A stretch of 11,780 nucleotides of DNA. Origin: a virus. Taxonomy: Duplodnaviria > Heunggongvirae > Uroviricota > Caudoviricetes. A program made the position numbers and the translations under genes. Shown here piece by piece: positions 1 through 10,141 of the stretch. The stretch is from the IMG/VR virus record IMGVR_UViG_2548877011_000017; one strand, given 5' to 3'. How positions within the stretch are numbered: position 1 is the first letter of the stretch; each line of letters opens with the position of its first letter. Below the pieces are notes generated by a model that saw only the letters and a program-made list of their open reading frames with translations, was not told the origin of the DNA and did no database searches.

Positions 1-2799
1 TCAGGCACCGTGACATTTTTTGTACTTTATTCCCGAGCCACAGGGGCATTGTTCATTCCGGCCGACCGCACCAAAAACTTCAGTTAATTTAGTCTTTGCT
101 GCTTTATGGGCAAGCTGTACGATGTAATTTGATTGATTTTGGATTTCTTGACGCTGTACACCTGTGAGGCCTTCGATATAGGGAGCAAGGCGCTGCATTT
201 CGACATCAGCTGCTTTATGCTGACCCGATAGTGCTAATATGACTGCGTATTGGCTTCGAACCTGAATCAGTCGATGTACTAGACCTGCCTCATTGACAAC
301 CGGCAGGACATGTTGCTCCATGACTTCCTTGGCACCGTCGTAATCCTTTATGGCAACAAACTCATCCGCCAGATCTTGGCCCACCCTGACCATGGATTCC
401 GGGGCCATGGCCAGATTGTAGAACTTCATCGAATGAATACGCAGTAATGGTGACAGTTTTCCCTGCGCATCACGAATTCTGGCCAGCAACTCCAGAGCAT
501 CAGCCATATGTTTAAAGTGTTCCTGCATATTTTCGGAATGATTAATAGTTTTCCATAATGCGTCGGCGTTTTTTCCTATGACATCAGCAGGTGTGATACC
601 AAATAAAGAATAGTACCCTTGTATAACATTACAGCTTAATGTTTCAGCATCCTTGAGTTTTTTTAATCTCCAGAGTGCAATGGCATGGTTGTAGTCAAAG
701 ATGCGTTTATGTTCTTCATCTGGGAGTTGGGGGCGGACTTCCTGTGCCAGCTTTTGAACTTCTCGTGCATCATTGCTTTCTGCCGAAAATAACATTCGTT
801 TCATTGCATAGGCCATCTCTTCTTGATAGCCGAACTTGTGCTCCGCAAGTAAAGCTCCCATGATGTTTAACCTCTGAGCAATGTGGTCGGATATTCCGTC
901 TTTAAGCTCAACGAAAACAAGGCCATCCAATGCCCAGAATTTATGAACAGGTCCCAATAAGTCCGATGTTGCAGCACGCTCCAAGCTTGCAAGAATGTCG
1001 ACCGTCACGCCCATCTCATAAAACATTTCTTGGCCTGAGAGTTCGATCAACGTCGTGACATCATTGAGCTTAATATAAAGTTGAGTCAACAACGATAACC
1101 GTTTTGTATTGCGGGTATTATGAAGACTTTCAACTAAAAGGTCTTTCAGCGCTAGTAGCGCTTTGTTCGATATACCCTGATCCATCAGTTCCAGATGTTG
1201 CAGTCCTAGCCCCCTGACAGCATCATGTACCTTCAGGGTCTGGTTTCCATAAATTTCAATAGTGCCAGTAGCGCGCATTTTCCTAATTAAAGAAGCAGCA
1301 CTGCTTGGTGAAATGTTCAGCGAATTGATTAGGAGCGTAGAAATCTCTTCGCGACTCAGCCCTACGTCAGAGAGACTGAACAATGCCAGCGCGCTCTGAA
1401 GTAGTGATTCAAATCCCTGAAATACACGTGACAGAATAATTTCTTGGGCGGTTTCCGCAGTATGGGTTTGTTGCTGGAGTTCAGCACACAGAGCATCGAC
1501 ATTACGCTCATAATCAGAAACGGCGATTTTTGCGGCGCTCTCTACATACAGGGGAAGACCACCAGTGTAAGCCCGTAGCTGCTCGTATCCCATAGCGGTG
1601 GCAAATCCTCCGATATCGTTTACAACGACAGCTACCGTATCGAGATTCCATCCCTGCAGGCCCTCGCGCTGTAGCCCCGTCATGACCTCCAGTTCGCGAA
1701 CGTTTTCGTGAGGCTGGCACAACAGCACAAAACGAATATGTGTAGTTGCATTCAGAACATCCAGTAGATTTTCCGCAGGTACACGATGGGCGTTATCCAG
1801 AACCAGCACCAAGGTGGTACCCTGCTCTTTCAGGTAGGTATCAAAACTCCTAAGAGCCTCAAAACCACTGGCACCGGGGAGCAAAATCCTGCGCAAACCG
1901 TCTTGGTCACGGGCTGTAAATCTAGCAGCCATCTCGCGCACCAGCGTACTGGCCAGAGCTGGACCGGGAAGATCACCGGTGTCGTAATAAGCACAAAGTG
2001 CAGTGGAGTGTAATGCGGCCTGTGCGGCCCAAGCTGTCTTGCCTGCACCTGAGAGTCCACAAAGGATACGGATCCGCTCACCAGATGTGAGAGAAGGTTC
2101 TTCGTTCTGTGGGCGGTACAGTGCTGGTGGTGCAGGAAAGTCCTGTAGCTGAACGATCAACTGTTCAAATAGTTCAGTAAGTTCTTCCGTGAAAAACGTA
2201 TGTTGTCCATTGGTATCGCCTCCGGTGGCGGCAAGCTGAACCAATCCTGCTAACTTCCAAATCAAGGATTCTGGGGACAATAGTGAAAATTTCAGCTTTT
2301 CTGCTTCTGCGATACACCATGTGGCCGCATCAGCCAGAGTACTCCATGCGGGCGGAAGTGCCGGGTGACGTCCAGCTGTCGACTGGGGCCAGACAATAAG
2401 AACATCAGAAGGAAGCTTTTTATCGTCAATCATCTTCTGAAGCAGCGGTCCAGGCGCCTGGTTTACAATAATCACAAAAGAAGCCACCCCTTCGCGGTTT
2501 GCCGAAGTATGCTCATTTCTGAGCTTTACAAATCGCTCCAGAGCCCCCGACACATCGTTGGGCATAATAGGTTTTGAACGGGTTTTAACCTGAATGTAGA
2601 GACGTTCCTGTTTGGATTTCAGCTCAATATCCTCATCAAGCTCGACAGTTACTGAGTCCATAGCTGCCCTCTGCGCCAAAAGTAAGCAGCCTACAGCGTA
2701 AAGATGCTGGTAAAGGAACCCCCGGTGTACCGCTTCGATACGCACCAACTGCACAGGATCCAGTACGTCCAGATTTTGTTTGTTTTCACTTCCCCACAT
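1..2799 (-). CDS. Multidomain NTPase (932 aa): N-terminal PD-(D/E)xK-like nuclease-type domain, central STAND-type P-loop NTPase, helical C-terminal region, terminal SEC-C zinc motif; candidate anti-phage defence protein
   Basis: Complete ORF: ATG at 2799-2797 with AAGGAA 6 nt upstream (plus-strand ttcctt 2806-2811) and TGA at 3-1. Translation shows Walker A GLSGAGKT (nt ~2035-2058), Walker B-like LVLVLDNAH, a following IRFVLLCQPHE strand, an N-terminal GFLYQ...VELDEDIEL...YIQVK pattern (E/D...QxK type nuclease core) and C-terminal CPCGSGIKYKKCHG (nt ~10-51). The CDS call is confident; the function is inferred. Confidence 0.85.
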   Translation of the reverse strand: MWGSENKQNLDVLDPVQLVRIEAVHRGFLYQHLYAVGCLLLAQRAAMDSVTVELDEDIELKSKQERLYIQVKTRSKPIMPNDVSGALERFVKLRNEHTSANREGVASFVIIVNQAPGPLLQKMIDDKKLPSDVLIVWPQSTAGRHPALPPAWSTLADAATWCIAEAEKLKFSLLSPESLIWKLAGLVQLAATGGDTNGQHTFFTEELTELFEQLIVQLQDFPAPPALYRPQNEEPSLTSGERIRILCGLSGAGKTAWAAQAALHSTALCAYYDTGDLPGPALASTLVREMAARFTARDQDGLRRILLPGASGFEALRSFDTYLKEQGTTLVLVLDNAHRVPAENLLDVLNATTHIRFVLLCQPHENVRELEVMTGLQREGLQGWNLDTVAVVVNDIGGFATAMGYEQLRAYTGGLPLYVESAAKIAVSDYERNVDALCAELQQQTHTAETAQEIILSRVFQGFESLLQSALALFSLSDVGLSREEISTLLINSLNISPSSAASLIRKMRATGTIEIYGNQTLKVHDAVRGLGLQHLELMDQGISNKALLALKDLLVESLHNTRNTKRLSLLTQLYIKLNDVTTLIELSGQEMFYEMGVTVDILASLERAATSDLLGPVHKFWALDGLVFVELKDGISDHIAQRLNIMGALLAEHKFGYQEEMAYAMKRMLFSAESNDAREVQKLAQEVRPQLPDEEHKRIFDYNHAIALWRLKKLKDAETLSCNVIQGYYSLFGITPADVIGKNADALWKTINHSENMQEHFKHMADALELLARIRDAQGKLSPLLRIHSMKFYNLAMAPESMVRVGQDLADEFVAIKDYDGAKEVMEQHVLPVVNEAGLVHRLIQVRSQYAVILALSGQHKAADVEMQRLAPYIEGLTGVQRQEIQNQSNYIVQLAHKAAKTKLTEVFGAVGRNEQCPCGSGIKYKKCHGA

Positions 2800-3213: not shown

Positions 3214-3451
3214 TTTTTTTGCGGGCTTTTCCCCAGTCCTTACGAGCCTGCTCCGAAGGAAATATTCCATGTCCTGAACCATATACTGCGCCACTAACTA
3301 CCAGCTCTTTCACCAGAACTTCTATCAGGTGTCTCGTCGCCCCGGTTTCATTTTCCAGTTGTTTACGCGTTTTTCGCCCATCTCTGCGTACCAGTTCCAC
3401 AATGCGCGCCTTCACTTCTTCCCGCAGTTCGGGAGTAAAAACTTTTGCCAC
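3176..3451 (-). CDS. Small basic hypothetical protein (91 aa), possibly DNA-binding
   Basis: GTG start at 3451-3449 preceded by a strong AGGAGG 4 nt upstream (plus-strand cctcct 3456-3461); TGA at 3178-3176. Translation is K/R/E-rich with a helix-turn-helix-like stretch (TRKQLENETGATRHLIEVLV). Its frame ends 12 codons after the A8 tract. Confidence 0.6.
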   Translation of the reverse strand: MAKVFTPELREEVKARIVELVRRDGRKTRKQLENETGATRHLIEVLVKELVVSGAVYGSGHGIFPSEQARKDWGKARKKNVESGSEKEERP

Positions 3452-3488
3452 AAGCCCTCCTGAAAATTACCCCATGACCTGAAATCTG

Positions 3489-4559
3489 TTACCCTCTGAA
3501 TCCCGGCGGAATTTCGGTGTCCGGTTCAGAAATATGATTAACACAACGCTGGTTGTTCGTGCCGCTTACCGGGAGCAACCAGGGGTTTTCAAAATTCCGG
3601 TCCGGTCCAAAAAACGTCGTCGCTCGCTGAACAAATTCCGTTCCCGTTTTCCCGGTAGCAGCCAGGTATCTTGTGTAACGCCTTACACCATCCAGCATGG
3701 CCTCTGGTGGCACCCCCTCGCGTAATCTGGCCTTCCAGGCACTGAAAGCGGATTTCTTCGGGTTTGCCCCGGCTCGTAACGGGTATTCCCGCCAGACCTG
3801 TTCGAACACATCCGGATAATCCACTCGTCCCACAGGCTGCCCGGTGTTTTCCGGGACTACCCGATCGGCTTCCCGCTGAATGGCGGAATCGGCTTCAGGC
3901 TGCTGCAGTTGGTGTGATTGCTCCGGCCCAGCGGTCATCGCCTGCTGCACAGCGCCCGAATCGGCTTTCAGCGCATACGCTGAATCGGCTTCCGGTGTCG
4001 TGCCTGCGGGCTGGCCAGGAGTGACGGTCTGAACATCCCCTACATGGTTCGTGGCGTTTTTTACGCCATGGACCATAGTGTTTTGATCTTCTTTATCTGT
4101 ATCTCTATCTGTATCTTTATCTGTCGTGACTCGTCGTGACATGTGCGTGACATTTCGTGACGCGCCGTGACAATCGCCATTTTGTTCCCGCTTTCTTTCC
4201 CTCTCACGCTGCGCCCTCTTGCGCTCTGCCGGAGATTTTGCGGTTTGCGAAATATTGCCGTTGTCCTCTTTAAGCACCTGGCGTTTTTCCCATCCAGTGA
4301 TTAAATCACCATCAAGTACCCGCCCCTGCATCGTCTGCAAAATTGAATCAATTACCTCTTCTGTCACGTCGAGCGCACTTGCCAAATCTTCTGTCGTGAC
4401 ATCAATGTGACCTCGCGTGACATTTCGTGACGCGCTCACCAGGAGGTGGATATACACTGCCATCACTGTTGCAATTGGCTGCCCTGACACCCTGGCAATT
4501 GTTCGCCACTTAGGGTCATTTGGCATGTCATGCCATAATCTGAGCCAGGCGTTAGCCAT
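3489..4559 (-). CDS. Phage replication initiation protein (lambda O-like replisome organiser) with the origin embedded in the gene
   Basis: N-terminus MANAWLRLWHDMPNDPKWRTIA is typical of phage replisome-organiser N-terminal domains; there is a low-complexity acidic/Q-rich linker and a conserved-looking C-terminal domain. ATG 4559 has GAGGTGA upstream; the ORF track begins 2 codons earlier at GTG 4565. Iteron clusters lie inside the coding sequence. Confidence 0.8.
   Translation of the reverse strand: MANAWLRLWHDMPNDPKWRTIARVSGQPIATVMAVYIHLLVSASRNVTRGHIDVTTEDLASALDVTEEVIDSILQTMQGRVLDGDLITGWEKRQVLKEDNGNISQTAKSPAERKRAQRERERKREQNGDCHGASRNVTHMSRRVTTDKDTDRDTDKEDQNTMVHGVKNATNHVGDVQTVTPGQPAGTTPEADSAYALKADSGAVQQAMTAGPEQSHQLQQPEADSAIQREADRVVPENTGQPVGRVDYPDVFEQVWREYPLRAGANPKKSAFSAWKARLREGVPPEAMLDGVRRYTRYLAATGKTGTEFVQRATTFFGPDRNFENPWLLPVSGTNNQRCVNHISEPDTEIPPGFRG
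4125..4171. repeat. Iteron cluster A: five CGTGAC repeats with 10-11 bp phasing, flanked by a (TATCTGTATCT)n AT-rich stretch (4091-4124); putative ori
   Basis: CGTGAC at 4125, 4135, 4146, 4156 and 4166, read directly. The helical-turn spacing inside an initiator gene matches lambda-type ori organisation. Confidence 0.55.
4395..4431. repeat. Iteron cluster B: four (C/T)GTGAC repeats with 10-11 bp phasing
   Basis: CGTGAC at 4395, 4416 and 4426 and TGTGAC at 4406. The 19-mer CGTGACATTTCGTGACGCG is shared with cluster A (4146-4164 vs 4416-4434). An inverted copy GTCACG lies at 4363-4368. Confidence 0.5.
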
Positions 4560-4630
4560 ACTCACCTCTTCTGATACCGAATCTTTTTACTCACGAATTG
4601 CCGGAAGCGATTCGATATGGCTATTGTCAG

Positions 4631-5056
4631 TCAATGTACTGCCACAGCATTTCCTGCCGGGCCACCACGGTTCATCTGATTGAAACCGGCGATTGCCACT
4701 GCGACAAAATCATCAGCGTCTCTCACCAGTCGCTCCCGCGTCTCCACCAACTCCCGAAAATAAGCTGAACTGTGGCTGCGCATTCTGGCCACCAGCAAAG
4801 GTGGCATTGCCTTTTCGATCGCTGGTAACAACGCCTGAATTTTTTCAACTGCATCAGGGGTGTCTTTCTCTACCCAGCGGAAAATTTTCTGGGTATTGCG
4901 AGCCAGGGCTTCCGGATGGCTGTCGTCATACAGTTCAGGAAACGTCATACCCAACTCAAAATAAGCCTGGGTTATTCCAGCTGCTGGAACTTTTTCGCCA
5001 TCAGGACGCGCCCAGGCATTCATCGCCATGCGGATGTGTTCATGCTTGATTTTCAT
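4631..5056 (-). CDS. YdaT-like protein (141 aa; CII-position protein of Rac/CP-933P-type lambdoid prophages)
   Basis: ATG 5056-5054 with AGGAG 8 nt upstream. The size and position directly downstream of the Cro/YdaS-like gene match the ydaS-ydaT arrangement. The start overlaps the upstream gene end by 17 nt. Confidence 0.7.
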   Translation of the reverse strand: MKIKHEHIRMAMNAWARPDGEKVPAAGITQAYFELGMTFPELYDDSHPEALARNTQKIFRWVEKDTPDAVEKIQALLPAIEKAMPPLLVARMRSHSSAYFRELVETRERLVRDADDFVAVAIAGFNQMNRGGPAGNAVAVH

Positions 5057-5921: not shown

Positions 5922-6106
5922 CCTTCCTTTCATACCAACCCACCCCACCCCACAGAATGCAGGGCAATACTTCGAGTTACCAGGCAGTGGTCAGGGGTTA
6001 AGTAGCCAGCCCGAGGCGTAAGAACATGACGGCAGGGTTCAACTTTAATAACTATGCAGCAGGTTTTTGTTCCGCTACCCCGGCGTTAAGGGGAAATGAG
6101 GTCAAC

Positions 6107-6262
6107 ATGGATACTATCGATCTTGGCAACAACGAATCTCTGGTGTACGGCGTGTTTCCCAACCAGGACGGTACGTTCACCGCGATGACGTATACCAAAA
6201 GCAAAACGTTTAAAACCGAAAATGGTGCCCGTCGCTGGCTGGAAAGAAACTCAGGTGAGTGA
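6107..6262 (+). CDS. ydfA: YdfA-like small protein (51 aa), copy 1
   Basis: MDTIDLGNNESLVYGVFPNQDGTFTAMTYTKSKTFKTENGARRWLERNSGE; GAGGT 4 nt upstream of ATG 6107. The length and sequence match my recollection of Qin-prophage YdfA (DUF1391). The ORF track gives a longer alternative from ATG 6026. Confidence 0.65.
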   Translation: MDTIDLGNNESLVYGVFPNQDGTFTAMTYTKSKTFKTENGARRWLERNSGE

Positions 6263-6263
6263 T

Positions 6264-6392
6264 ATGGATTTCGACACAATCATGGAAAAGGCTTACGAAG
6301 AATACTTCGAAGGTCTTGCCGAAGGCGAAGAAGCTCACAGCTTCAACGAATTTAAACAGGTGCTTTCCAGTTCGGCAAAATCTAACGGCTGA
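6264..6392 (+). CDS. ydfB: YdfB-like small protein (42 aa), copy 1
   Basis: ATG 6264 lies 1 nt after the ydfA-like stop, with GGTGAG upstream; translation MDFDTIMEKAYEEYFEGLAEGEEAHSFNEFKQVLSSSAKSNG, stop TGA 6390-6392. Below the ORF-track size cut-off; identified by manual translation. Confidence 0.6.
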   Translation: MDFDTIMEKAYEEYFEGLAEGEEAHSFNEFKQVLSSSAKSNG

Positions 6393-6421: not shown

Positions 6422-6622
6422 ATGCAGAAACGAGAACCCGTCATCATCGCGCCAGACTATACCGATGATGAACTTTATGAGTGGATGCACCAGAAAATTA
6501 ATGCAGCGCAGGATCTGAAATGGGCCAATGAAGCCAGAGCTAAGCAGGCTGAAAATCTGTCCGCTCTGGAGCAGGATATCACCAATCTGGAAACGAGTTA
6601 CCAGGCAGTGGTCACGGGTTAA
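6422..6622 (+). CDS. ydfC: YdfC-like protein, copy 1 (66 aa; C-terminus altered by the duplication junction)
   Basis: GAGGAA 7 nt upstream of ATG 6422. It matches copy 2 through ...QDITNLE, then reads across the repeat junction into copy 2 (TSYQAVVTG stop). Confidence 0.6.
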   Translation: MQKREPVIIAPDYTDDELYEWMHQKINAAQDLKWANEARAKQAENLSALEQDITNLETSYQAVVTG

Positions 6623-6727
6623 GTAGCCAGCCCGAGGCGTAAGAACATGACGGCAGGGTTCAACTTTAATAACTATGCAGCAGGTTTTTGTTCCGCTACC
6701 CCGGCGTTAAGGGGAAATGAGGTCAGC

Positions 6728-6883
6728 ATGGATACTATCGATCTTGGCAACAGCGAATCTCTGGTATGTGGCGTGTTCCCCAACCAGTACGGTACGTTCA
6801 CCGCAATGACGTATACCAAAAGCAAAACGTTTAAAACCGAATCTGGAGCGCGTCGCTGGCTGGAAAGAAATTCAGGTGGGTGA
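6728..6883 (+). CDS. ydfA: YdfA-like small protein (51 aa), copy 2
   Basis: Paralogue of 6107-6262 at +621 offset, with 4 amino-acid differences; same RBS context. Confidence 0.65.
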   Translation: MDTIDLGNSESLVCGVFPNQYGTFTAMTYTKSKTFKTESGARRWLERNSGG

Positions 6884-6884
6884 T

Positions 6885-7013
6885 ATGGATTTCGACACAA
6901 TCATGGAAAAGGCTTACGAAGAATACTTCGAAGGCCTTGCCGAAGGCGAAGAAGCTCACAGCTTCAACGAATTTAAACAGGTGCTTTCCAGTTCGGCAAA
7001 ATCTAATGGCTGA
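6885..7013 (+). CDS. ydfB: YdfB-like small protein (42 aa), copy 2
   Basis: Paralogue of 6264-6392 at +621 offset; ATG 6885, stop TGA 7011-7013. Confidence 0.6.
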   Translation: MDFDTIMEKAYEEYFEGLAEGEEAHSFNEFKQVLSSSAKSNG

Positions 7014-7669: not shown

Positions 7670-10141
7670 ATGAGTAAAGTCTTTATTTGCGCCGCCATTC
7701 CGGACGAACAGGCAATAAAGGAAGAAGGTGCAGTCGCTGTAGCCACAGCTATTGAAGCTGGCGACGAACGCCGTGCTCGAGCAAAATTTCACTGGCAATT
7801 CCTGGAACATTATCCGGCTGCTCAGGACTGCGCTTATAAATTTATTGTCTGCGAGGATAAACCTGGCATACCCCGCCCTGCCCTCGATTCATGGGATGCT
7901 GAATATATGCAGGAAAACCGCTGGGATGAGGAGTCTGCTTCCTTTGTCCCGGTTGAGACTGAATCCGATCCGATGAACGTCACTTTTGACAAGCTGGCCC
8001 CTGAAGTACAGAACGCTGTCATGGTTAAGTTCGACACATGTGAAAACATCACCGTTGATATGGTTATTAGCGCACAGGAATTGTTGCAGGAAGACATGGC
8101 AACATTCGACGGACATATCGTTGAAGCGTTGATGAAAATGCCAGAAGTTAACGCCATGTATCCGGAGCTTAAGCTGCATGCCATCGGGTGGGTTAAGCAT
8201 AAATGTAAGCCTGGTGCCAAATGGCCCGAAATTCAGGCAGAGATGCGCATCTGGAAAAAACGTCGCGAAGGTGAACGCAAGGAAACCGGAAAATACACGT
8301 CTGTTGTTGATCTCGCCCGCGCCAGAACCAATCAACAGCACACTGAAAATTCAACAGGAAAAATCAGCCCGGTCATTGCTGCCATTCATCGCGAATACAA
8401 GCAGACATGGAAAACACTGGATGACGAACTGGCCTACGCTCTCTGGCCTGGTGATGTGGATGCCGGAAACATTGACGGCAGCATCCATCGCTGGGCAAAA
8501 AATGAAGTTATCGACAACGACCGCGAAGACTGGAAGCGTATCTCGGCATCAATGCGCAAACAGCCTGATGCCCTTCGCTACGACCGCCAGACTATTTTTG
8601 GCCTTGTCCGTGAACGTCCGATCGACATTCACAAAGATCCCGTAGCACTGAACAAATATATCTGCGAATACCTGACGACAAAGGGCGTGTTTGAGAATGA
8701 AGAAACAGACCTGGGCACTGTTGATGTTCTCCAGTCATCAGAAACACAAACTGATGCAGTGGAAACTGAGGTATCTGATATCCCAAAAAATGAAACCGCG
8801 CCGGAAGCTGAACCATCTGTAGAGCGTGAGGGGCCGTTCTACTTCCTCTTCACCGACAAGGATGGCGAAAAATACGGTCGCGCAAACAAACTTTCTGGTC
8901 TGGATAAGGCGCTGTCTGCTGGGGCTACTGAAATCACGAAAGAAGAATATTTCGCCCGCAAAAACGGTACATACTCAGGTTCACAACAAAATACTGGTGC
9001 ATCTGACACGACCGCACAACCAGGGCCGGTAAAAGTTACCGCTGACGAAGTAAACAAAATTATGCAGGCAGCCAATATCAGCCAGCCTGACGCCGATGAA
9101 CTGCTTGCAGTATCACGTGGTGAATTTGTTGAAGGGATTAGCGACCCGAATGATCCGAAATGGGTTAAGGGGATCCAGACCCGCGATTCTGTGAACCAGA
9201 ACCAGCAAGAAACGGAACAGAACGACCAGAAAGCGGAACAAAACAGCCCAAATACGCAACAAAACGAGCCAGAAACGAAACAACCTGAACCAGTAGTGCA
9301 ACAGGAACCGGAAAAGATCTGCACCGCCTGCGGTCAGAGCGGTGGCGGCAACTGCCCTGATTGTGGTGCGGTGATGGGTGACGCAACATACCAGGAAATA
9401 TTCGATGGAGAGAATCAGCCTGAAGTTCAGGAAAATGATCCGGAGGAAATGGAAGGCACTGCGCATCAGCACAAGGAGAACACTGGCGGCAATCAGCATC
9501 ATGCCAGCGATAGTGAAACTGGCGAGGCGTCAGATCCCTTAATTAAGGCGAACGGTCATCATAATCTCACATCCACCAGCAGAGCGGGGATTCATCTGAT
9601 GATCGACCTTGAAACCATGGGAAAAAATCCCGATGCCCCGATTATCTCAATAGGTGCAATATTTTTCGATCCGCAAACCGGAGATATGGGACCGGAATTT
9701 AGTAAGACTATCGATCTGGAAACTGCTGGCGGAGTCATTGATCGGGACACCATTAAATGGTGGCTTAAGCAATCACGCGAAGCGCAATCTGCCATTATGA
9801 CCGATGAAATCCCGTTAGATGATGCACTGTTACAATTGCGGGAATTTATCGACGAAAACTCCGGTGAATTTTTTGTTCATGTCTGGGGAAATGGAGCCAA
9901 CTTCGACAACACGATTTTGCGCCGTTCATACGAACGGCAGGGGATCCCCTGCCCGTGGCGTTACTACAACGATCGCGATGTACGCACAATCGTTGAGCTG
10001 GGGAAAGCCATAGACTTCGATGCCAGAACGGCTATTCCATTCGAAGGTGAGCGCCATAATGCACTTGATGACGCCCGTTACCAGGCAAAATACGTTTCAG
10101 CTATCTGGCAAAAACTGATCCCGAGTCAGGCTGATTCTTAA
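7670..10141 (+). CDS. Large phage protein (823 aa) with C-terminal DnaQ-like DEDDh 3'-5' exonuclease domain, internal Cys4 zinc ribbon and Q/E/N-rich linker
   Basis: ATG 7670 with GAGGT about 10 nt upstream. C-terminal motifs HLMIDLETMG (Exo I, D-x-E), WGNGANFDNT (Exo II) and HNALDDARYQA (Exo III, H-x4-D) at nt ~9590-10130; CTAC-x9-CPDC at nt ~9320-9363. It occupies the slot before xis-int where Qin has the ydfE fragment and Rac has recE. Confidence 0.85.
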   Translation: MSKVFICAAIPDEQAIKEEGAVAVATAIEAGDERRARAKFHWQFLEHYPAAQDCAYKFIVCEDKPGIPRPALDSWDAEYMQENRWDEESASFVPVETESDPMNVTFDKLAPEVQNAVMVKFDTCENITVDMVISAQELLQEDMATFDGHIVEALMKMPEVNAMYPELKLHAIGWVKHKCKPGAKWPEIQAEMRIWKKRREGERKETGKYTSVVDLARARTNQQHTENSTGKISPVIAAIHREYKQTWKTLDDELAYALWPGDVDAGNIDGSIHRWAKNEVIDNDREDWKRISASMRKQPDALRYDRQTIFGLVRERPIDIHKDPVALNKYICEYLTTKGVFENEETDLGTVDVLQSSETQTDAVETEVSDIPKNETAPEAEPSVEREGPFYFLFTDKDGEKYGRANKLSGLDKALSAGATEITKEEYFARKNGTYSGSQQNTGASDTTAQPGPVKVTADEVNKIMQAANISQPDADELLAVSRGEFVEGISDPNDPKWVKGIQTRDSVNQNQQETEQNDQKAEQNSPNTQQNEPETKQPEPVVQQEPEKICTACGQSGGGNCPDCGAVMGDATYQEIFDGENQPEVQENDPEEMEGTAHQHKENTGGNQHHASDSETGEASDPLIKANGHHNLTSTSRAGIHLMIDLETMGKNPDAPIISIGAIFFDPQTGDMGPEFSKTIDLETAGGVIDRDTIKWWLKQSREAQSAIMTDEIPLDDALLQLREFIDENSGEFFVHVWGNGANFDNTILRRSYERQGIPCPWRYYNDRDVRTIVELGKAIDFDARTAIPFEGERHNALDDARYQAKYVSAIWQKLIPSQADS

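What the first reader, a model, noticed from the sequence alone, without database searches (positions are those of the whole stretch)
4090..4431. Origin-like iteron arrays inside the replication initiator gene
There are nine copies of (C/T)GTGAC in two clusters (4125-4171, 4395-4431) with 10-11 bp phasing, a shared 19-mer, and an adjacent TATCTGTATCT-type AT-rich repeat (4091-4124). This is the lambda O / ori-lambda arrangement. The repeats also impose VT and TD-x-D codon repeats on the protein linker.
Basis: partly seen in the sequence, partly recalled or inferred. Interest (0 to 1): 0.5.

Follow-up and report, generated by a model that had tools for sequence, protein, structure and literature searches.

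The report
Replication origin inside prophage initiator gene
The short repeats are real and are almost certainly the replication origin of a very common E. coli prophage, written inside the gene for the protein that binds it, as in phage lambda, but this has not been tested at the bench.

Summary
Nine same-strand (C/T)GTGAC copies lie at 10-11 bp spacing in two arrays (4125-4171, 4395-4431), next to a 28% GC repeat tract. Shuffled sequence never comes close.

The gene (3489-4559, minus strand) encodes a phage "replisome organizer". It has a winged-helix N-domain like the DnaD N-terminal domain, a disordered linker, and a C-domain like the DnaT C-terminal domain.

The repeat is a DNA signal, not a peptide repeat:
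- GTCAC is read in all three reading frames.
- Synonymous sites inside it are frozen.
- About 70 diverse homologs keep the same layout: an array in the N-domain coding region, a second array in the linker, a purine/AT-rich tract, then a GC hairpin.
- The hexamer changes with the clade (GTCACG, GTAACG, CGAACG, GCAACG, GTGACG).
- A natural chimera with an unrelated N-domain and the same C-domain carries AAGGGGCTT arrays at the same positions.

Best reading: an iteron-type origin embedded in its initiator gene. It is analogous to lambda O/ori-lambda and SPP1 G38P/oriL, but is not a lambda O homolog. Binding and origin activity are inferred, not shown. I rate it a new member of a known kind, of moderate interest.

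The parts
3489..4559 (-). Initiator gene (356 aa; ATG at 4559, stop at 3489-3491). NCBI names it 'phage replisome organizer'; it falls in phrog_3729, 'replication initiation protein'.
   Evidence: No Pfam family reaches threshold. At least 80% of window 3400-4700 is present in 1646 of 5426 complete E. coli genomes.
4275..4559 (-). Coding region for the N-terminal winged-helix domain (aa 1-95), the presumed iteron reader.
4395..4431 (-). Array A: four GTCAC(G) iterons on the coding strand, spaced 10, 10 and 11 bp (going 5' to 3' on that strand). It encodes the loop aa 43-56 (ASRNVTRGHIDVTT) between helix 3 and the winged helix.
   Evidence: Synonymous sites are frozen: majority-codon fraction 0.92 against 0.53 elsewhere in the N-domain. 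The same 5-mer as in array B is phased here in 54 of 68 homologous loci.
4363..4368 (+). A single inverted copy of the iteron core (CGTGAC reads on the - strand), 33 nt downstream of array A on the coding strand.
   Evidence: It is conserved at +33 in most GTCAC-class loci but not in other classes, so its significance is uncertain.
4182..4232 (-). Coding region for a conserved basic helix (aa 110-126, PAERKRAQRERERKREQ) just before array B.
4125..4171 (-). Array B: five GTCAC(G) iterons on the coding strand, spaced 10, 10, 11 and 10 bp (going 5' to 3' on that strand). It lies in the disordered linker (aa 130-145) and is the array next to the unwinding tract.
   Evidence: At least 3 phased copies occur at this position in 69 of 79 homologous loci. 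The structure model gives pLDDT below 50 for aa 127-243.
4075..4124 (.). AT-rich tract, purine-rich on the coding strand: (GATAAAGATACA)n, encoding TDKDTDRDTDKED. Presumed DNA unwinding element and the joint between modules.
   Evidence: 28% GC and the least stable 40-mer of the gene. In homologs the tract averages AT 0.66 against 0.44 for the gene, and purine 0.75 against 0.56. Codon bias in GC-rich hosts: GAT:GAC 80:3 against 208:350, and AGR:CGN 43:3 against 76:603. Its length varies from 24 to 48 nt among E. coli copies. DNA homology with the alternative-N-domain gene starts at its end.
4044..4076 (.). A 33-nt palindrome with a 14-bp stem and 5-nt loop, directly after the tract. It encodes MVHGVKNATNH.
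   Evidence: Folded as single-stranded DNA, the + strand gives -12 kcal/mol, z -5.6, with 0 of 200 shuffles as good. Hairpins at the equivalent place in homologs: perfect stem of 6 or more in 41% against 15% background, and 7 or more in 22% against 4%.
3492..3827 (-). Coding region for the C-terminal domain (aa 245-356), which resembles the DnaT C-terminal single-strand-DNA-binding domain.
   Evidence: A profile of alignment A3 matches PDB DnaT chains 6aep (E 1.7e-8), 2ru8 and 9zbt. The last 24 aa match the NCBIfam DnaT model weakly. pLDDT is 84-95.

Best explanation
The region 4044-4431 is the vegetative, theta-type replication origin of this Rac/lambda-like E. coli prophage. It is embedded in the gene for its own initiator.

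Proposed mechanism (every step below is inferred; none has been tested):
1. The initiator is transcribed leftward from the cro-side early promoter, through the origin.
2. Its N-terminal winged-helix domain recognises the hexamer GTCACG.
3. The copies sit one helical turn apart, so five initiators line up on one face of array B (4125-4171) and four on array A (4395-4431), about 230 bp away. The two arrays may be bridged by a loop or wrap.
4. The resulting strain opens the adjoining 28% GC, strand-asymmetric tract (4075-4124).
5. The palindrome at 4044-4076 can extrude once the DNA is single-stranded.
6. The DnaT-like C-terminal domain holds single-stranded DNA and/or recruits the host DnaB-DnaC helicase complex. 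This fits the absence of any phage helicase or loader gene next to the initiator.

What the data show directly: the repeats are real and phased, they are constrained at the DNA level, they covary with the N-domain, and the layout is conserved.
For: Clustering and phasing.
- They are far beyond chance.

DNA-level constraint.
- GTCAC is read in three frames, as VT, SR, GH and CH.
- Among 23 GTCAC-class homologs, codons overlapping the core are 96-100% fixed, while the spacer codon R49 is free at 0.39. The overall majority-codon fraction is 0.92 against 0.53 elsewhere (Mann-Whitney p = 4e-5).

Conservation across homologs.
- 69 of 79 homologous loci have at least 3 phased copies at the array B position. 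They come from Gamma-, Beta- and Alphaproteobacteria and beyond, and share 37-99% N-domain identity.
- 54 of 68 loci carry the same 5-mer, phased, at the array A position.

Covariation.
- The hexamer differs by clade: GTCACG, CGAACG, GTAACG, GTGACG, GCAACG, GGAACG.
- Both arrays change together within a locus.

Link to the N-domain.
- Among 21 GTCAC-class loci, no flanking ORF family and no C-domain family is shared by more than 6. The N-domain is the only constant partner.
- Natural swap: P0035 (locus L166) has an unrelated N-domain, the same C-domain and the same neighbouring genes. It carries AAGGGGCTT twice and then three times at 11-bp spacing, about 256 bp apart, and nowhere else in 4.1 kb. 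DNA homology to the window begins exactly at the end of the purine tract.

The tract.
- It is AT- and purine-rich in all hosts, with extreme synonymous bias.
- It is the least stable segment of the gene.

The protein.
- The N-domain is predicted to be a winged helix like the DnaD N-terminal domain.
- The C-domain is DnaT-like.
- The culturable phage Tritos has the same module with no helicase or loader gene beside it.

Precedents.
- Lambda (PMC7466680, PMC3349717) and SPP1 (PMC5737612) both have origins of this design inside the initiator gene.
Against: - There is no experimental evidence of binding, unwinding or origin activity for this family. I found no paper on it.
- The loci compared are phylogenetically related, so the p-values overstate independence.
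- The N-domain's Pfam match is below threshold, and Foldseek on the full-length model found nothing significant.
- I could not identify residues that determine hexamer specificity.
- In one search, 14 of 68 loci that have array B lack phased copies of the same 5-mer at the array A position, so array A's role may differ from origin firing.
- The flank survey covered only 1.5 kb on each side and only same-strand ORFs.
Confidence: 0.8

Rival explanations
1. The arrays are bound by the initiator but act mainly in control rather than as the start site. They could serve as an autoregulatory roadblock or operator inside the gene, or as copy-control 'handcuffing' sites like plasmid control iterons, with the true start site elsewhere in the phage. 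This is most plausible for array A alone.
For: - In one search, 14 of 68 loci with array B lack phased copies of the same 5-mer at the array A position, so array A is dispensable for the basic design.
- Array A has no AT-rich tract of its own.
- SPP1 G38P binds a second site, oriR, that is not the theta origin (PMC5737612, PMC5615212).
Against: - Array B is always followed directly by a DNA-level AT/purine tract and a hairpin. That is the signature of a firing origin.
- No second iteron cluster exists in the 11.8-kb window.
- The 356-bp equivalent region in SPP1 is sufficient for replication in vitro (PMC5737612).
Confidence: 0.1
2. The repeats are sites for a different DNA-binding protein or process. 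Candidates are the CII-like/YdaT activator (lambda CII binds direct repeats 10 bp apart), an antisense promoter, a terminase pac site, or a partition centromere.
For: - The 10-bp phased direct repeats recall TTGC-N6-TTGC (from memory).
- A weak sigma-70-like match (GTGACA, 16 nt, GACAAT; 9 of 12) lies on the + strand at 4147-4174.
- A YdaT/CII-like gene sits directly upstream.
Against: - No flanking gene family co-occurs with the GTCAC arrays in more than 6 of 21 loci.
- L166 has the same YdaT and Cro-type neighbours as the window but completely different iterons, which track its different N-domain.
- The -35 resemblance exists only for the GTCAC class.
- No terminase or partition genes are nearby.
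Confidence: 0.04
3. The repeats have no DNA-level function. They would be a by-product of a repetitive, low-complexity peptide linker or of replication slippage.
For: - The tract encodes a low-complexity acidic and basic linker, and its length is polymorphic.
- The linker is predicted to be disordered.
Against: - The core is read in three frames, so there is no common peptide.
- Synonymous positions are fixed.
- Tract codon choice runs against host GC bias.
- Both arrays change hexamer in concert across clades.
- An unrelated N-domain family has the same two-array layout.
Confidence: 0.02

Closest known systems
Phage lambda O protein and ori-lambda (also the Stx phages 933W and P27)
   Same: - The origin lies inside the initiator gene, between the coding regions for the DNA-binding N-domain and the C-domain that recruits the helicase.
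- Iterons lie next to an AT-rich tract of about 40 bp that unwinds.
- Extra iterons add amino acids to the protein (PMC7466680). Here 21 nt, two iterons, adds 7 aa in some E. coli variants.
- The prophage context is lambdoid, with cI/cro/cII-like genes, int and xis.
   Different: - There is no Phage_rep_O domain.
- The iterons are 6-bp cores in direct orientation every 10-11 bp. Lambda has four 18-19 bp imperfect inverted repeats with spacers (PMC3349717, PMC7466680).
- There are two arrays about 230 bp apart, one of them inside the N-domain coding region.
- There is no P-type loader gene, and the C-domain is DnaT-like.
Bacillus phage SPP1 replisome organizer G38P and oriL (and the PF09681 Phage_rep_org_N proteins of Gram-positive phages)
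   Same: - A 'replisome organizer' without an AAA+ domain.
- The origin is embedded in the organizer gene, as direct repeats (AB boxes) plus an adjacent AT-rich unwinding element (PMC5737612).
- NCBI names the window protein 'phage replisome organizer'.
- There is a weak but full-length PF09681 match.
   Different: - The Pfam match is below threshold: 15.9 bits against a 23.3-bit cut-off.
- SPP1 encodes its own loader (G39P) and helicase (G40P) next to gene 38. This module has neither.
- The repeat sequences and geometry are different.
- The host is Gram-negative.
DnaD (N-terminal domain) and DnaT (C-terminal domain), host primosome and initiation adaptors
   Same: - The C-domain profile matches DnaT C-terminal structures (6aep at E 1.7e-8).
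   Different: - These are domain-level resemblances only.
- The NCBIfam DnaT equivalog scores 18 bits against a 201-bit cut-off.
- DnaD and DnaT are not known as iteron-specific origin binders (from memory).
Iteron-containing plasmid origins (Rep winged-helix initiators such as pPS10, R6K and RK2)
   Same: - Winged-helix initiator.
- Multiple direct repeats beside an AT-rich unwinding element.
- The initiator is encoded in cis.
- Separate iteron clusters can act in control ('handcuffing', from memory).
   Different: - Plasmid iterons are about 17-22 bp and lie outside the rep gene.
- Here the cores are 6 bp at helical-turn spacing and lie inside the coding sequence.

Membership tests
Lambda O / ori-lambda (Pfam Phage_rep_O initiators) | The initiator carries the Phage_rep_O N-terminal domain. 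| tested here: not met
   No Pfam family at E <= 0.01 for the 356-aa protein. Scanning 43 N-domain homologs at E <= 1 never lists Phage_rep_O among the top families.
Lambda O / ori-lambda (Pfam Phage_rep_O initiators) | The origin lies inside the initiator gene, in the segment between the N- and C-domain coding regions. | tested here: met
   Array B and the tract fall at aa 130-157, inside the disordered segment aa 127-243 between two confidently folded domains.
Lambda O / ori-lambda (Pfam Phage_rep_O initiators) | Four or more iterons of 18-19 bp, each an imperfect inverted repeat. | tested here: not met
   The repeats are 6-bp cores in 10-11 bp units, all in one orientation. The arrays have no fold-back potential, z about 0.
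Lambda O / ori-lambda (Pfam Phage_rep_O initiators) | An AT-rich unwinding tract directly beside the iterons. | tested here: met
   4075-4124 has 28% GC and holds the least stable 40-mer of the gene. The feature is conserved across homologs with DNA-level codon bias.
Lambda O / ori-lambda (Pfam Phage_rep_O initiators) | A partner P-type helicase loader is encoded downstream. | tested here: not met
   The downstream genes are DUF977/Ren-like and a defence-like ATPase. Phage Tritos has the same arrangement.
Phage replisome organizer with an embedded origin (SPP1 G38P/oriL; PF09681 N-domain) | The N-domain belongs to PF09681 (Phage_rep_org_N). | tested here: inconclusive
   E 0.013 and 15.9 bits against the 23.3-bit cut-off, though aa 5-123 cover profile positions 1-119 of 121. 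It is the top family, matching 8 of 43 homologs, with a best E of 0.0022.
Phage replisome organizer with an embedded origin (SPP1 G38P/oriL; PF09681 N-domain) | Direct repeats plus an adjacent AT-rich unwinding element inside the organizer gene. | tested here: met
Phage replisome organizer with an embedded origin (SPP1 G38P/oriL; PF09681 N-domain) | The organizer binds the repeats, and the fragment supports replication. | not testable with these tools
   This needs gel-shift or footprinting assays and a plasmid replication assay. Here there is only indirect support: covariation and the natural domain swap.
Generic iteron-type origin | The repeats covary with the cognate initiator's DNA-binding domain. 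| tested here: met
   There are six or more hexamer classes that follow N-domain clades. An unrelated N-domain carries AAGGGGCTT arrays at the same positions. No other gene is a constant partner.
Generic iteron-type origin | The initiator has a sequence-specific DNA-binding fold. | tested here: met
   [not shown]
DnaT (primosomal protein I) | A full-length equivalog of E. coli DnaT. | tested here: not met
   NCBIfam NF002770 scores 18.2 bits against a 201-bit cut-off and matches only the last 24 aa. The 'primosomal protein I' labels in phage records are domain-level at best.
DnaT (primosomal protein I) | A C-terminal three-helix single-strand-DNA-binding domain. | tested here: met
   The A3 profile matches PDB 6aep (E 1.7e-8), 2ru8 (E 2.3e-6) and 9zbt (E 8.9e-6) over profile positions 212-310. 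The model is helical with pLDDT 84-95.

The most novel reading that the evidence does not exclude
The family may share an origin 'grammar' that goes beyond the lambda model. It would have four parts:
- two arrays of helically phased hexamers held about 230-260 bp apart, one written into a variable loop of the DNA-binding domain's own coding sequence;
- a strand-asymmetric tract of the (GATAAA)n type with 3- and 6-nt periodicity, serving as a loading platform for single-stranded DNA;
- a GC hairpin whose sequence varies but whose structure is kept;
- a DnaT-like domain that plugs the phage directly into the host restart primosome, so that no phage loader is needed.

In this reading the ~250-bp spacing (a loop or wrap) and the hairpin are mechanistically required. 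The unwinding tract would double as the recombination joint where specificity modules (N-domain plus iterons) are exchanged. At least two unrelated N-domain families use the same grammar.
Probability: 0.25. Interest if true: 0.55.

Novelty: new member of a known kind. Interest (0 to 1): 0.4.

Why it matters
- Reach. At least 80% of the 1.3-kb stretch holding this module is present in about 30% of complete E. coli genomes. Relatives occur across Proteobacteria. None of the two phage records I opened or the eight E. coli rows listed shows an annotated origin here.
- Practical use. A sequence rule (phased hexamer arrays, then a purine/AT tract, then a hairpin, all inside the organizer gene) would let origins and replication-specificity groups be read from sequence. 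It would also explain mosaic exchange at the tract, and supply small origin-and-initiator cassettes of differing specificity.
- Mechanism. The module is a tractable case of a loader-less phage initiator that probably borrows the host helicase-loading pathway through a DnaT-like domain.
- Caution. The design itself is what specialists would expect from lambda and SPP1.

Tried and rejected
- Rfam scan of the whole window: no hit.
- DnaA boxes: none within one mismatch near the gene. GATC is not enriched. Host DnaA or SeqA control is therefore not indicated.
- Promoter and terminator scan: one weak antisense promoter-like match, created by the iterons themselves, plus the palindrome. I rejected the promoter as a general explanation because other hexamer classes lack it.
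- PDB sequence search with the N-domain profile: nothing.
- Specificity-determining residues: I looked for residues tracking the hexamer class outside the array A-encoded loop and found no consistent pattern. The loop residue His51 is kept in one GTCAC locus that lacks array A (L121) but not in another (L155).
- The inverted copy after array A: conserved only within the GTCAC clade, so I do not treat it as a family feature.
- Literature searches for this family's origin, for sequence strings, and for 'replisome organizer' with DnaT or iteron found no description. The Stx-phage 'Eru' replication-module paper does not analyse origins.
- I recall a palindrome beside ori-lambda's AT-rich tract, but could not confirm it in the papers I read. 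I leave it as a recollection.
Full report
**What is in the sequence**

The interval lies in a minus-strand gene (3489-4559, 356 aa, ATG at 4559). On the + strand, (C/T)GTGAC occurs at 4125, 4135, 4146, 4156 and 4166, and at 4395, 4406, 4416 and 4426. The spacings are 10-11 bp. A tenth, inverted copy lies at 4363-4368.

Only five other + strand copies occur in the rest of the 11.8-kb window. In 1000 dinucleotide-preserving shuffles, the largest same-strand count in any 310 bp averaged 1.7 and never exceeded 4, against 9 observed. Pairs spaced 10-11 bp never exceeded 1, against 7 observed.

The two arrays share an exact 21-mer, GCGTGACATTTCGTGACGCGC, at 4145 and 4415. Beside array 4125-4171 lies a 12-bp repeat, TCTTTATCTGTA, in 2.9 copies at 4090-4124. 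The stretch 4075-4124 has 28% GC, the lowest in the 3400-4700 profile covering the gene. The least stable 40-mer of the gene starts at 4081, about 3.6 sd below the gene mean.

**The gene and its setting**

The window is a Rac/lambda-like E. coli prophage. It carries an integrase and excisionase, a RecE-type exonuclease, a CI-like repressor, a Cro/YdaS-like gene and a CII/YdaT-like gene, then this gene, then DUF977/Ren-like. At least 80% of window 3400-4700 is present in 1646 of 5426 complete E. coli genomes. It is also present at 95-97% identity in isolated temperate phages such as Tritos and Evi.

The protein has no Pfam family at threshold. It falls in phrog_3729, 'replication initiation protein', and NCBI names it 'phage replisome organizer'.

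A profile of the C-terminal part matches solved DnaT C-terminal domains, with 6aep at E 1.7e-8. It is not a DnaT equivalog.

**The repeat is a DNA signal, not a peptide repeat**

On the coding strand the core GTCAC is read in all three frames: GTC-ACG (Val-Thr), G-TCA-C (Ser-Arg), and GT-CAC (Gly-His or Cys-His).

Among 23 homologs that use GTCAC, with N-domains 65-91% identical to the window's, codons overlapping the cores are 96-100% fixed. The spacer codon Arg49 is free. The majority-codon fraction is 0.92 in array A against 0.53 elsewhere in the N-domain (p = 4e-5). The arrays have no fold-back structure, z about 0.

**Comparative evidence**

I fetched phage loci and 80 loci from one-genome-per-species bacterial genomes. 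Their N-domains are 37-99% identical to the window's, and they come from Gamma-, Beta- and Alphaproteobacteria and beyond.

In 69 of 79 loci, at least 3 copies of a 5-mer lie 9-12 bp apart at the array B position, 330-460 nt from the start codon. In 54 of 68 loci the same 5-mer is also phased at the array A position, 120-190 nt from the start.

The hexamer is not constant. It is GTCACG in 23 loci and CGAACG in 19. GTAACG, GTGACG, GCAACG, GGAACG and others make up the rest. All share an ACG core. The binding-site sequence therefore covaries with the N-domain clade, and the two arrays of a locus change together.

Among 21 GTCAC-class loci, no flanking ORF family and no C-terminal domain family is shared by more than six. 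The N-domain is the only constant partner.

**A natural swap experiment**

E. coli protein P0035 (phrog_1701) has an unrelated N-domain but the same C-domain. It also has YdaT and DUF977 neighbours like the window's, plus a Cro-type gene (P22_Cro).

Its gene carries AAGGGGCTT at 1685 and 1696, and at 1941, 1952 and 1963. The spacing is 11 bp, the arrays are about 256 bp apart, and the motif occurs nowhere else in 4.1 kb. A purine-rich tract follows, and then the same palindrome as in the window.

DNA similarity to the window is at background level through the arrays and the tract. It becomes more than 90% identical from AAAACACTATGG onward. So the iterons travel with the N-domain, the hairpin and the DnaT-like domain travel together, and the tract is the joint.

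**The tract and the hairpin**

Across homologs, the 40 nt after array B average AT 0.66 against 0.44 for the gene, and purine 0.75 against 0.56 on the coding strand.

In 39 loci from hosts with at least 55% GC, codon choice in the tract is strongly skewed:
- Asp is GAT:GAC 80:3, against 208:350 elsewhere in the gene.
- Arg is AGR:CGN 43:3, against 76:603 elsewhere.
- Lys is AAA:AAG 49:22, against 104:266 elsewhere.

The base composition is therefore selected at the DNA level. Among E. coli copies the tract length varies from 24 to 48 nt.

Directly after the tract the window has a 33-nt palindrome at 4044-4076. As single-stranded DNA the + strand folds at -12 kcal/mol, z -5.6. Homologs have hairpins of unrelated sequence at the same place, often with 4-nt loops such as TGAC, TAAC or TATC. 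A perfect stem of 6 or more occurs in 41% against 15% in background windows, and 7 or more in 22% against 4%.

**Mechanism**

The best-supported reading is an iteron-type origin embedded in its initiator gene. Winged-helix N-domains would bind one hexamer per helical turn on one face of the DNA. The adjoining AT/purine tract would then melt, and the DnaT-like C-domain would engage single-stranded DNA and/or the host DnaB-DnaC pathway.

The last point fits the absence of any helicase or loader gene beside the initiator in the window and in phage Tritos. By contrast, an Aeromonas relative with a different C-domain has a DnaC-like loader downstream, and a Ralstonia relative has a DnaB helicase downstream.

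Binding, unwinding, helicase recruitment and the roles of array A and the hairpin are all inferences. No DnaA boxes or GATC clusters are nearby.

**Comparison with what is known**

The design matches lambda: the origin sits in the middle of O, with iterons and an AT-rich tract of about 38 bp, and extra iterons add residues to O (PMC7466680, PMC3349717). It also matches SPP1: oriL is embedded in gene 38 of the replisome organizer G38P, with AB-box repeats and an unwinding element, and 356 bp suffice in vitro (PMC5737612).

It is not a lambda O homolog, and its iterons are a different type: 6-bp direct cores every 10-11 bp rather than 18-19 bp inverted repeats. It has two arrays and lacks a P or G39P-type partner. 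I found no paper describing the origin of this family.

**Verdict**

It is a new, uncharacterised member of a known kind of origin. It has some distinctive and widely conserved features and very wide distribution, but the design is unsurprising. I give it interest 0.4, and confidence 0.8 that the arrays are the initiator's binding sites and part of the origin.

Noticed in passing
L166 1685-2060 (E. coli GCA_038071335.1); compare window 4040-4431: A second initiator family (P0035, phrog_1701) has an unrelated N-domain fused to the same DnaT-like C-domain. Its gene carries AAGGGGCTT arrays of 2 and 3 copies at 11-bp spacing, about 256 bp apart. A purine tract follows, then the same palindrome. 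DNA homology with the window starts at the end of the tract.
   Followed up: yes
window 4044-4076: A 33-nt palindrome (14-bp stem, loop TTTTT) lies directly after the AT-rich tract. Hairpins of unrelated sequence occupy the same place in many homologs, often with TGAC, TAAC or TATC loops. Its function is unknown. It could be a priming or helicase-loading signal, a boundary of unwinding, or an mRNA structure.
   Followed up: partly
L086 and proteins P0003, P0022, P0057, P0090 (array A region, equivalent to window about 4400-4420): Some E. coli and E. albertii variants have two extra iterons in array A. This is a 21-nt insertion that keeps the reading frame and adds 7 residues (TCHGVSR-like) to the loop. 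The (GATAAAGATACA)n tract also varies from 24 to 48 nt among otherwise near-identical copies.
   Followed up: partly
window 1-2799 (- strand): A 932-aa ORF lies just downstream of the replication module. It has a Cap4-like nuclease N-terminus, an AAA ATPase domain and a C-terminal SEC-C motif, plus a weak hit to a DUF4297 anti-phage family. It looks like a prophage-borne defence gene.
   Followed up: no
window 5973-6272 and 6594-6893: A direct repeat of at least 300 nt at 95% identity, with starts 621 bp apart. It duplicates several small ORFs between the repressor region and the recE side.
   Followed up: no
window 9193-9283: A 21-bp tandem repeat (GAAACAAAACGAGCCAGAAAC, 4.3 copies, 74% matches) lies inside the 823-aa RecE-type exonuclease gene (7670-10141).
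   Followed up: no
window 3958-3991 (and L166 2107-2235): GAATCGGCTT is repeated 24 bp apart. It encodes the repeated EADSA motif in the linker before the C-domain. Some close homologs (for example P0006) lack about 30 residues of this linker, overlapping one EADSA copy, which may reflect deletion between the direct repeats.
   Followed up: no
window 4147-4174 (+ strand): The iteron GTGACA resembles a -35 hexamer. The scan reports a weak antisense promoter-like site (GTGACA, 16 nt, GACAAT; 9 of 12 matches). It is probably incidental, because other iteron classes lack the resemblance.
   Followed up: partly
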